Shown: piece after piece, positions 26,701 to 28,806 of the stretch | Numbering within the stretch: the stretch's first letter is position 1 | How the letters are laid out: each line of letters opens with the position of its first letter | Assembly (NCBI RefSeq): GCF_003334405.1 | Contig: NZ_QOWM01000005.1 | Direction: 5' to 3' (one strand) | Source: Escherichia coli | GTDB taxonomy: Bacteria > Pseudomonadota > Gammaproteobacteria > Enterobacterales > Enterobacteriaceae | Length of the DNA: 64,000 nucleotides | Program-made: the position numbers

Positions 26701-28806
26701 ATTTGGCGCATTCTTAATGGCTTCGGCAAAGCCTTTCTTACGGTCAATGGCGACGCTGGCCCCAACAGTGCCCTGCAGCTCCACCACGTTGCATGGTTTG
26801 CCATTCACTTCTTTTACCAGCCAGTCACCAATCAACTTGCCTTCGAGAATGTTGTCGGCAGTGACGGTGGTCATATAGAGAGATTTGTCTTTCACATCAA
26901 TAGAACGATCGAGCAAGAAGACCGGGATTTCGGCATCTTTCGCCTCTTTTAATACCGGTTCCCAACCAGTCGCAACCACCGGAGCGATAAAGATCGCATC
27001 CACCCCTTGCGCGACGAAGGAACGTACCGCTTTAATCTGGTTTTCCTGCTTTTGCTGACCATCGGCAATTTTCAGCGTAATTCCGCGTTTTTCGGCCTCA
27101 CTTTTCGCCACATTGGTTTCTGCGGCGCGCCAGCCAGATTCCGATCCGACCTGCGAAAATCCTACGGTTAATGGAGCGGCCAACGCCATAGACGACATGG
27201 CTGCCGAGACTGCAGAGACTACAAGTAAGCGTTTCCACATAGGGTTGTCCTCGTCGGGGTAATTATTATTGGTGAAAAGATGTTCGCGAAAAAACTATAG
27301 ACAATTCGTTATGTAACGGATTGCGTTACATCACACTTCAAAGAAGTAAATAAAACGTTAATCACAAGTTTGTAATCGCTTTCATCTCACTATGAAAAAT
27401 GCGGCTACGGTTATGGATTTTCCTGCTCTGTATACCGTCTTAAAATTGGCGAAAAAGGAAAATGAAGACGAAAACAAGCGAAGACATTCGGCGCGAGTTG
27501 GCTATAATACTCGGCACTTGTTTGCCACATATTTTTAAAGGAAACAGACATGAGCTTACTCAACGTCCCTGCGGGTAAAGATCTGCCGGAAGACATCTAC
27601 GTTGTTATTGAGATCCCGGCTAACGCAGATCCGATCAAATACGAAATCGACAAAGAGAGCGGCGCACTGTTCGTTGACCGCTTCATGTCCACCGCGATGT
27701 TCTATCCGTGCAACTACGGTTACATCAACCACACCCTGTCTCTGGACGGTGACCCGGTTGACGTACTGGTCCCGACTCCGTACCCGCTGCAGCCGGGTTC
27801 TGTGATCCGTTGCCGTCCGGTTGGCGTTCTGAAAATGACCGACGAAGCCGGTGAAGATGCGAAACTGATTGCTGTTCCGCACACAAAGCTGAGCAAAGAA
27901 TACGATCACATTAAAGACGTTAACGATCTGCCAGAGCTGCTGAAAGCGCAGATCGCTCACTTCTTCGAGCACTACAAAGACCTCGAAAAAGGCAAGTGGG
28001 TGAAAGTTGAAGGTTGGGAAAACGCAGAAGCCGCTAAAGCTGAAATCGTTGCTTCCTTCGAGCGCGCAAAGAATAAATAAGTTCTTCTAGCGCAATAACC
28101 CTGAACGCCGGGCTTCGGTTAGTAAGGGTTTTTTTATGCCCGCGATAAATAAACTCTCTATTCCACCATCATTATTCTCAGCGGTTGCAAGGCTTGAACG
28201 GTAAGAACAAGCAAACCCGACCACCATTTTGCTGTTCATAGCCACTTGCTGGAAGTTAGCCGACCTCACTCATACTCACCGTTCAAAGCGTGCCCCCGTT
28301 TTACCCCTGCACATTTGTGAACGCCAGCAGAGTTTTTTATGCGATTGCAGATATGGAAAGCGGCTCGGAGAGAAAAGCAAAAGATGGAAAAGTTACAAAA
28401 AAAAATCGCGAGATACATCGCATAAAACAACGCCACCCGAAGGTGGCGTGCTTTTATTATTACTTATCCCTGTCTAACCAGTCGCCGCTTTCAATTAGCT
28501 TTAATCCATCGACGGGTCGTTGATAAACGTACATCCATGCACTCCCGTACGGCGTCTGAATCAACTGGCGCGCGTATTCACCGCCCCTGGTGCGCAAGGC
28601 ATCAAGTTCGGCCAGCGTGGCGTTGTCAATACGATAAACTTCACCGTGTACTGTTCCGTTCCCCGGAACTGCGCCTGGATAGTGGCCCAGGCTATACAAC
28701 TGGTAGTTATCGATACTGAAATCGCCCAGTAACTGGGCATTGGTCATCCAGTGACTGTTGCCTTGTTTGTGGCGTAAACTGCCGTAGACAAATATTCGCA
28801 TTGCTA

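What the first reader, a model, noticed from the sequence alone, without database searches (positions are those of the whole stretch)
28081..28459. ppa-ytfP spacer lacks the chpS-chpB toxin-antitoxin module present in K-12
In K-12 the chpSB toxin-antitoxin pair (as I recall) lies between ppa and ytfP. Here the interval is about 380 bp with no convincing ORF, only a terminator-like hairpin next to ytfP. Presence or absence of this module is a known type of strain variation, and the spacer may hold deletion scars or an unannotated small RNA.
Basis: partly seen in the sequence, partly recalled or inferred. Interest (0 to 1): 0.3.

Follow-up and report, generated by a model that had tools for sequence, protein, structure and literature searches.

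The report
Decayed chpSB toxin-antitoxin remnant
This E. coli strain carries, between ppa and ytfP, the dead leftover of the chpS-chpB toxin-antitoxin pair rather than the working genes; this common, old and apparently neutral allele is ordinary strain variation.

Summary
The window is E. coli, with ppa at 27550-28080 (+) and ytfP at 28460-28801 (-). The 379 bp between them have no chpS or chpB, whereas K-12 has both genes there.

The spacer is a deletion scar, not an empty site:
- Bases 28163-28287 (minus sense) match chpB codons 7-48 at about 72% identity. They carry in-frame stops and frameshifts.
- This fragment is fused through a CCACCA microhomology to the last chpB codons and stop.
- chpS, chpB codons 1-6 and 49 bp of upstream sequence (RBS and palindrome) are gone.

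Of 5426 complete E. coli genomes, 3098 have intact chpSB and 2325 have this remnant. No genome showed both.

The same two junctions occur in E. albertii. There the remnant has diverged as much as third codon positions of ppa and ytfP, so it looks neutral and old.

I found no support for a small RNA: no Rfam hit, no promoter-like site, and no covariation beyond two terminator hairpins.

Hairpin 28430-28449 is the ytfP terminator. In another strain it holds the 15-bp integration core of a P2-like prophage.

Low interest.

The parts
27550..28080 (+). ppa (inorganic diphosphatase), left border of the spacer
   Evidence: 176-aa ORF. Annotated as ppa in identical and related E. coli records.
28097..28137 (+). 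ppa terminator-like stem (AACCCU...AGGGUU) followed by a run of seven T. It is shared with K-12, where it lies between the convergent ppa and chpB.
   Evidence: Fold. The window and K-12 are 93% identical over 28081-28168. Terminator function is inferred.
28158..28168 (-). Last codons and stop of the former chpB (..V-E-stop, TAG here and TAA in K-12). This is the left edge of deletion 1. The CCACCA at 28163-28168 is the microhomology shared by both deletion ends.
   Evidence: Alignments. Frame 2 of the conceptual translation ends ..MMVE*.
28163..28287 (-). chpB remnant, homologous to chpB nucleotides 19-145 (codons 7-48). It is disabled by in-frame stops and frameshifts.
   Evidence: blastn gives 72.4% identity over 127 bp, with E 1e-14 against K-12 and E 1e-7 against 28 Gb of E. 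coli genomes, the hits annotated chpB. tblastn with ChpB reads VG*LPASGYEQQNGGR, then shifts frame to LVLTVQA.
28288..28296 (.). 9-bp junction GCGTGCCCC between the chpB fragment and the sequence that lies upstream of chpS in K-12. This is the site of deletion 2, which removed chpB codons 1-6, all of chpS and 49 bp upstream.
   Evidence: Alignments. The same junction is present in E. albertii, ATCC 25922 and OZ042069.
28297..28406 (-). Leftover intergenic sequence that in K-12 lies between the ytfP terminators and the chpS promoter-proximal region
   Evidence: The alignment block 28297-28449, which contains this part, is 86% identical to K-12 and 100% identical to the chpSB-positive strain EC1722-1. 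No conserved ORF: the 28-aa ORF at 28339-28425 has a stop at codon 3 in K-12 and E. albertii.
28397..28422 (-). Second, weak terminator-like hairpin (28422-28407) followed by a run of nine T, downstream of ytfP
   Evidence: The stem varies between Escherichia lineages without convincing compensation.
28430..28449 (.). Strong hairpin ACGCCACC-CGAA-GGTGGCGT with T-rich tails on both strands, read as the ytfP intrinsic terminator
   Evidence: z -4.1 and -4.6. The inner six stem pairs are invariant and the two outer pairs stay paired in the 10 Escherichia sequences aligned.
28431..28445 (.). CGCCACCCGAAGGTG, the 15-bp core that is duplicated at both ends of a P2-like prophage in strain N50. The site is unoccupied in the window.
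28460..28801 (-). ytfP (gamma-glutamylcyclotransferase family), right border of the spacer
   Evidence: 113-aa ORF. Annotated as ytfP.

Best explanation
The ppa-ytfP spacer is the chpSB-null allele of E. coli, an inactive leftover of a former chpS-chpB (MazEF/PemIK-family) type II toxin-antitoxin operon.

Two deletions made it:
- Deletion 1 removed about 200 bp of chpB (roughly codons 49-113) between two CCACCA repeats. It left the last codons and the stop.
- Deletion 2 removed about 312 bp: chpB codons 1-6, all of chpS, the RBS, and a 17-bp palindrome that looks like a TA operator.

What remains is 125 bp of chpB (codons 7-48) with stops and frameshifts. It has no antitoxin, no promoter-proximal sequence and no start codon, so it cannot make toxin or antitoxin. 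It drifts at about the neutral rate.

The only parts of the spacer likely to work are the ppa terminator and the tandem ytfP terminators.

The allele is old. It is shared with E. albertii and with a divergent Escherichia lineage. It coexists in E. coli with the intact operon, and the two alleles are exchanged by homologous recombination through the conserved flanks.

Shown here: the homology, the lesions, the junctions, the allele frequencies and the divergence figures. Inferred: the microhomology-mediated mechanism, the order of the two deletions, the neutrality and the terminator function.
For: - K-12 gene order is ppa-chpB-chpS-ytfP.
- Window 28163-28287 matches chpB nt 19-145 at 72% identity, with E 1e-14 against K-12 and 1e-7 against all E. 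coli genomes, the hits annotated chpB.
- Left and right blocks align to the K-12 flanks at 93% and 86%. CCACCA is present at both ends of deletion 1.
- The conceptual translation shows in-frame stops and frameshifts, and ChpS has no match.
- 3098 genomes have intact chpSB and 2325 have the remnant, summing to 5423 of 5426. They are mutually exclusive.
- RefSeq annotates nothing under the remnant.
- E. albertii has the same junctions. Its remnant is 87.2% identical to the window, against 87.6% at ppa and 87.7% at ytfP third codon positions.
- Intact chpSB in other Escherichia species has third-position divergence similar to its flanks.
- EC1722-1 has intact chpSB with a right flank 100% identical to the window. 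HH45 carries a 101-bp K-12-type chpB patch inside the remnant, which indicates gene conversion between the alleles.
- Decay of chromosomal TA loci in E. coli by deletion and nonsense mutation is an established pattern (PMC7167474).
Against: - The remnant is only about 72% identical to any intact Escherichia chpB, while the flanks are 86-98% identical. A simple recent deletion of the present-day gene is therefore excluded. Either the remnant is very old, or it derives from a diverged chpB allele. With 127 aligned bases I cannot separate these.
- Neutrality rests on one interspecies comparison of 125 bp, not a formal test.
- No expression data were available.
Confidence: 0.9

Rival explanations
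1. The spacer encodes an unannotated small RNA or small protein, for example a + strand transcript ending at the 28430-28449 hairpin, or the 28-aa ORF at 28339-28425.
For: The hairpin has a T-rich tail on the + strand as well. The 173-nt + strand stretch folds slightly better than shuffles, z = -1.9. An ATG ORF of 28 aa exists.
Against: - No Rfam family matches inside the spacer at E <= 1. The only hit lies in the ppa coding end and scores far below its gathering threshold.
- No sigma-70-like promoter on either strand in 27900-28700.
- The alignment of 10 Escherichia sequences shows no covariation except one compensated outer pair of the terminator stem.
- Divergence from E. albertii over 28288-28429 is 88.0% identity, the same as third codon positions.
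- The 28-aa ORF is interrupted at codon 3 (ATGCGTTAA) in K-12, E. albertii and others.
Confidence: 0.04
2. The window shows the ancestral empty site. chpSB was inserted into K-12-like strains, and the similarity to chpB is chance or insertion-site homology.
For: 25 of the 80 Enterobacteriaceae species sampled have a compact ytfP-ppa spacer under 200 bp with no TA. The site takes many different inserts, so insertion into an empty site certainly happened at some earlier time.
Against: - The window's spacer is 379 bp, not compact.
- It contains 125 bp colinear with the interior of chpB (E 1e-7 in 28 Gb) plus the chpB stop region, in the right order and orientation.
- An interior gene fragment with stops and frameshifts cannot be a pre-insertion site.
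- HH45 shows recombination between the remnant and intact chpB across this homology.
Confidence: 0.02
3. The remnant is kept because it does something, such as spacing or insulating the convergent ppa and ytfP terminators, or acting as a recombination or integration platform.
For: All 2325 remnant genomes match the query at 80% identity or more, nearly all over its full length, and the four remnant loci aligned base by base share both junctions with the window. Nobody seems to have trimmed it further. The neighbouring hairpin is used as a phage attachment core and as an island junction.
Against: - Sequence divergence equals that of synonymous-like sites.
- Many Enterobacteriaceae manage with a spacer of 93-190 bp between the same two genes.
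- The integration core lies in the terminator hairpin, not in the remnant.
Confidence: 0.04

Closest known systems
chpS-chpB (ChpBI-ChpBK) type II toxin-antitoxin operon of E. coli K-12, MazEF/PemIK family
   Same: Same chromosomal position between ytfP and ppa, same orientation, and demonstrable nucleotide homology to chpB codons 7-48 and to the chpB stop region.
   Different: No antitoxin gene, no start of the toxin gene and no RBS or palindrome. About two thirds of chpB is deleted and the rest carries stops and frameshifts. It is a dead relic, not a member of the functional family.
Decaying chromosomal TA loci in E. coli, such as ccdO157 (Mine et al. 2009, as summarised in PMC7167474)
   Same: A fixed chromosomal location across strains, with loss by deletion and nonsense mutation, and intact and degenerate alleles coexisting within the species.
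   Different: A different TA family. Here the degenerate state is one single allele with two fixed junctions. It reaches about 43% of complete genomes and is shared with E. albertii. The review passage read describes decay at such loci generally, as deletions or accumulated nonsense mutations. I did not read the ccdO157 study itself.
Intergenic hot spots that collect phage and island insertions, such as terminator hairpins used as attB by P2-like phages
   Same: The ytfP terminator hairpin holds a 15-bp core duplicated at both ends of a P2-like prophage in strain N50. It also borders an esiB island in ATCC 25922.
   Different: In the window the site is unoccupied. I did not establish which named P2-like phage uses it, and no record in the phage collection holds the spacer sequence.

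Membership tests
Functional type II TA module chpSB (MazEF/PemIK family) | Intact toxin ORF (PemK/MazF fold, 116 aa in K-12) | tested here: not met
   Only codons 7-48 and the last few codons remain, with in-frame stops and frameshifts.
Functional type II TA module chpSB (MazEF/PemIK family) | Intact antitoxin ORF (ChpS, 83 aa) immediately upstream of the toxin | tested here: not met
   tblastn with ChpS against the spacer gives E 0.41. The alignment to K-12 shows chpS entirely deleted.
Functional type II TA module chpSB (MazEF/PemIK family) | Own promoter, operator and RBS upstream of the antitoxin | tested here: not met
   The 49 bp upstream of chpS in K-12, which hold the RBS GGAGG and the palindrome GTTATACTTTGTATAAC, are missing. 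No promoter-like site in the window spacer. That the palindrome is the operator is inferred.
Gene remnant / pseudogene | Significant colinear homology to a known gene at the orthologous position | tested here: met
   72.4% identity over 127 bp, E 1e-7 against all E. coli genomes, with hits annotated chpB at the same locus. E 1e-14 in the pairwise comparison.
Gene remnant / pseudogene | Disabling lesions (truncation, stops, frameshifts) | tested here: met
   Two deletions of about 200 and 312 bp. TAA in place of Phe17, further stops near codons 10-12, and a one-base deletion after Arg30.
Gene remnant / pseudogene | Evolution at about the neutral rate | tested here: met
   Window versus E. albertii: remnant 87.2% identical, ppa third positions 87.6%, ytfP third positions 87.7%. 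This is a single comparison and not a formal test.
Intrinsic (Rho-independent) terminator | G+C-rich stem-loop followed by a U run at the 3' end of a gene | tested here: met
   28449-28430 on the minus strand lies 10 nt after the ytfP stop, with 8 pairs (6 G-C), tail TGTTTTAT and z -4.6. The ppa stem at 28097-28130 is followed by a run of seven T.
Intrinsic (Rho-independent) terminator | Demonstrated transcript 3' ends at the site | not testable with these tools
   No transcriptome data were available.
Small regulatory RNA | Match to a curated RNA family, or own promoter plus terminator | tested here: not met
   No Rfam hit in the spacer at E <= 1. No promoter-like site. A terminator is present on the + strand only because the ytfP hairpin is symmetric.
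Small regulatory RNA | Conserved structure with compensatory changes | tested here: not met
   RNAalifold on 10 Escherichia sequences finds 24 pairs, and only one, in the terminator stem, has a double change. The covariation term is -0.72 kcal/mol.
P2-like prophage attachment site (attB) | Short core sequence duplicated at both prophage ends, with the integrase gene next to one end | tested here: met
   In N50, CGCCACCCGAAGGTG (window 28431-28445) ends the host-side homology at attL, about 90 bp from the integrase gene, and begins it at attR next to ytfP. This was tested in one strain only.

The most novel reading that the evidence does not exclude
The intact chpSB operon and this single dead allele may be a long-lived, trans-species presence/absence polymorphism in Escherichia. 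It would be held at intermediate frequency (57% versus 43% of complete E. coli genomes) by balancing selection, for instance a phage-defence or stress benefit of ChpB set against its cost, rather than by drift plus recombination. The evidence shows that both alleles are old and occur in several Escherichia species. It does not show selection.
Probability: 0.12. Interest if true: 0.45.

Novelty: new member of a known kind. Interest (0 to 1): 0.15.

Why it matters
It matters little. Variable presence of chpSB among E. coli strains, and decay of chromosomal TA loci, are both established (PMC6096937; PMC7167474).

The small additions are these:
- The chpSB-negative state is one specific, unannotated pseudogene allele with two fixed junctions.
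- It is present in about 43% of complete genomes and is shared with E. albertii.
- It can serve as a clean marker when scoring chpSB status, and as a near-neutral reference sequence.
- Pangenome association hits on chpB/chpS, such as the one in PMC6096937, should be read as a two-allele locus shuffled by recombination.

Tried and rejected
- Rfam scan of 27200-28900 at E <= 1 gave only a sub-threshold S15-leader hit inside the ppa coding end, which I dismissed.
- The promoter scan of the spacer found none.
- Folding 28290-28462 on both strands gave z-scores of -1.9 and -1.3, which are unremarkable.
- RNAalifold on 10 Escherichia sequences gave no covariation beyond the terminators.
- I tested whether the remnant came from a chpB of another genus (Lelliottia, Enterobacter, Pseudocitrobacter, Kluyvera). 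It is closest to Escherichia chpB (72-74% against 49-59%), so a foreign origin is not supported. The 127-bp tree is too short to say more.
- I considered that intact chpSB spread recently across Escherichia, because its first 127 nt are 97-98% identical between species. I rejected this after full-length third-position divergence (82-90% identity) matched the flanks.
- The phage collection search with the right half of the spacer gave no phage carrying it, only one 31-bp Salmonella match.
- Literature searches for a described chpB remnant found none. Fiedoruk et al. 2015, on TA distribution across phylogroups, is not held.

Full report
**The observation.** The window is E. coli chromosome. ppa is at 27550-28080 (+), ytfP at 28460-28801 (-), tamB at 28804-32583 (-) and ytfQ at 26284-27240 (-). 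A 701-bp query across the spacer is 100% identical to several complete E. coli genomes, which annotate only ppa and ytfP there. K-12 MG1655 has the order ppa - chpB - chpS - ytfP - tamB, with 79 bp and 211 bp spacers (the same distances are tabulated in PMC5120126). No six-frame ORF resembles ChpS or an intact ChpB. The hairpin next to ytfP is real: 28430-28449, 8 pairs, with z -4.1 and -4.6 on the two strands.

**Anatomy of the spacer.** Pairwise blastn against the K-12 interval splits the spacer into three homologous blocks (multiple alignment).
- Block 1, 28081-28168, is 93% identical to K-12. It holds the ppa terminator-like stem and T run, then the last codons and stop of chpB (CTA-TTC-CAC on the + strand, which reads ..V-E-stop).
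- Block 2, 28163-28287, is 72.4% identical over 127 bp to chpB nucleotides 19-145 (codons 7-48), in the chpB orientation.
- Block 3, 28297-28449, is 86% identical to the sequence that in K-12 runs from 50 bp upstream of chpS to the ytfP terminator.
- A 9-bp junction, GCGTGCCCC (28288-28296), lies between blocks 2 and 3.

Relative to an intact operon, two deletions are therefore needed. Deletion 1 is about 200 bp inside chpB, between two CCACCA motifs; blocks 1 and 2 overlap on exactly this hexamer. Deletion 2 is about 312 bp. It removes chpB codons 1-6, all of chpS, the RBS and a 17-bp palindrome (GTTATACTTTGTATAAC) that looks like a TA operator. That the palindrome is an operator is my inference from how type II TA operons are usually autoregulated.

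**The fragment is dead.** Conceptual translation reads ..VG*LPASGYEQQNGGR, then shifts frame to LVLTVQALQPLRIMMVE*. ChpB reads VGFDPASGHEQQGAGRPALVLSVQAFNQLGMTLVA...AVVE*. Further stops lie near codons 10-12.

**The homology is not chance.** Against 28 Gb of E. coli genomes, the 151-bp query 28150-28300 hits annotated chpB at E 1e-7 in every chpSB-positive genome. Strain HH45 carries the remnant with a 101-bp patch that is 100% K-12-type chpB. That is what gene conversion between homologous alleles would produce.

**Frequency.** Intact-length chpSB is present in 3098 of 5426 complete E. coli genomes. The remnant is present at 80% identity or more in 2325 genomes: 1528 at >=99%, 95 at 95-99%, 698 at 90-95% and 4 at 80-90%. 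The other 3098 genomes match only through chpB, at 60-80% identity. Three genomes have neither. The two states are mutually exclusive alleles of one locus. RefSeq annotates nothing under the remnant. That chpB/chpS is an accessory, variably present pair is already in the literature (PMC6096937). Reviews also state that E. coli chromosomal TA loci sit at conserved positions and that some are decaying by deletion or nonsense mutation (PMC7167474). I found no paper describing this particular remnant, and the most relevant survey, Fiedoruk et al. 2015, is not held.

**Age and selective state.** A scan of one genome per species with YtfP returned 80 Enterobacteriaceae loci.
- E. albertii (type strain) and a divergent Escherichia lineage (SCPM-O-B-8794) have a 378-bp spacer with the same two junctions.
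- Between the window and E. albertii, the remnant is 87.2% identical and 28288-28429 is 88.0% identical. Third codon positions are 87.6% identical in ppa and 87.7% in ytfP.
- The scar therefore diverges like unconstrained sequence. This is a single comparison, not a formal test.
- Intact chpSB occurs at the same place in E. whittamii, Escherichia sp. MOD1-EC7003, sp. E1V33 and strain E69. Full-length third-position identity to K-12 is 82-90%, similar to the flanks, so the intact operon is also old in the genus.
- The remnant is closest to Escherichia chpB (72-74%) and far from the chpB of Lelliottia, Enterobacter, Pseudocitrobacter and Kluyvera (49-59%).
- The 28% gap between remnant and intact gene exceeds the 13% between the E. 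coli and E. albertii remnants. This implies that pseudogenisation predates that species split, or that a diverged allele was the parent. With 127 bases I cannot tell which.

**Recombination between the alleles.** EC1722-1 has intact chpSB, yet its right flank (28297-28801) is 100% identical to the window. K-12's right flank is only 94% identical.

**Is anything in the spacer functional?** I found no evidence for an RNA gene or a small protein.
- No Rfam match lies inside the spacer at E <= 1.
- There is no promoter-like site on either strand.
- Folding z-scores are unremarkable.
- RNAalifold on 10 Escherichia sequences found only the two minus-strand hairpins after ytfP, plus an invariant stem near 28297-28330, with essentially no covariation.
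- The 28-aa ORF at 28339-28425 is stopped at codon 3 in K-12 and E. albertii.

The likely working parts are the ppa terminator and the tandem ytfP terminators. Their function is inferred from sequence.

**Context: a hot spot.** In strain N50 the same interval holds a beta-glucoside PTS, GH1 and licT island, then a diverged, shorter copy of the remnant (78% over its first 63 bp; 84% over window 28225-28445), then a P2-like prophage. The 15-bp core CGCCACCCGAAGGTG (window 28431-28445), inside the ytfP terminator hairpin, is duplicated at attL and attR. In ATCC 25922 an esiB island begins right after the hairpin. FDAARGOS_1250 has an IS1 in the spacer. Among the 80 species loci:
- 10 have intact chpSB.
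- 25 have a compact spacer under 200 bp.
- 22 have other inserts over 1.5 kb.
- 2 have independent chp fragments (Citrobacter sedlakii and Enterobacter cloacae).

**Verdict.** The finding is correct and well explained. The spacer is the common null allele of chpSB, a decayed and apparently neutral toxin remnant left by two deletions, flanked by working terminators. It is ordinary strain variation of a known kind. The only modest additions are the precise anatomy, the single-origin and trans-species nature of the scar, and its roughly 43% frequency.

Noticed in passing
window 28431-28445; L004 18264-18576 and L089 4985-5300 (E. coli N50): The ytfP terminator hairpin contains a 15-bp core (CGCCACCCGAAGGTG) duplicated at both ends of a roughly 36-kb P2-like prophage in strain N50. 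The prophage carries int, cox, parM, ogr and hok. The site is empty in the window.
   Followed up: partly
L004 14073-18210 (E. coli N50), between ppa and the remnant copy: A three-gene beta-glucoside island (PTS IIABC, GH1 hydrolase, LicT antiterminator) occupies the ppa-ytfP interval. It is followed by a diverged, shorter copy of the remnant and the adjoining spacer (84% identical to window 28225-28445).
   Followed up: no
L005 1800-3152 (E. coli ATCC 25922): In this strain the remnant is followed, directly after a variant of the hairpin, by an island starting with esiB (secretory IgA-binding protein) instead of ytfP. This is another use of the same junction.
   Followed up: no
L008 1476-1742 (E. 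coli HH45): A mosaic allele. The remnant carries a 101-bp tract 100% identical to K-12 chpB (apparent gene conversion), followed by an odd 131-bp G/C-rich insert that may be an assembly artefact. PGAP calls it a partial PemK/MazF toxin pseudogene.
   Followed up: partly
window 28297-28449 versus L001, L005, L007, L012: The 150 bp between the former chpS promoter and the ytfP hairpin exist as haplotypes only 80-86% identical to each other within E. coli. This is far more diverged than the neighbouring genes. Each haplotype is found with either the intact or the remnant allele.
   Followed up: partly
L031 4638-4770 (Citrobacter sedlakii); L037 8100-8168 (Enterobacter cloacae): Independent ChpB (residues 63-107) and ChpS (residues 9-31) fragments lie in the ytfP-ppa spacer of other genera. 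This suggests repeated decay of chpSB at this position.
   Followed up: no
one search hit H1 (E. coli FDAARGOS_1250); summary: One otherwise identical strain has an IS1A inserted in this spacer. Three E. coli plasmid records carry chpSB-like DNA.
   Followed up: no
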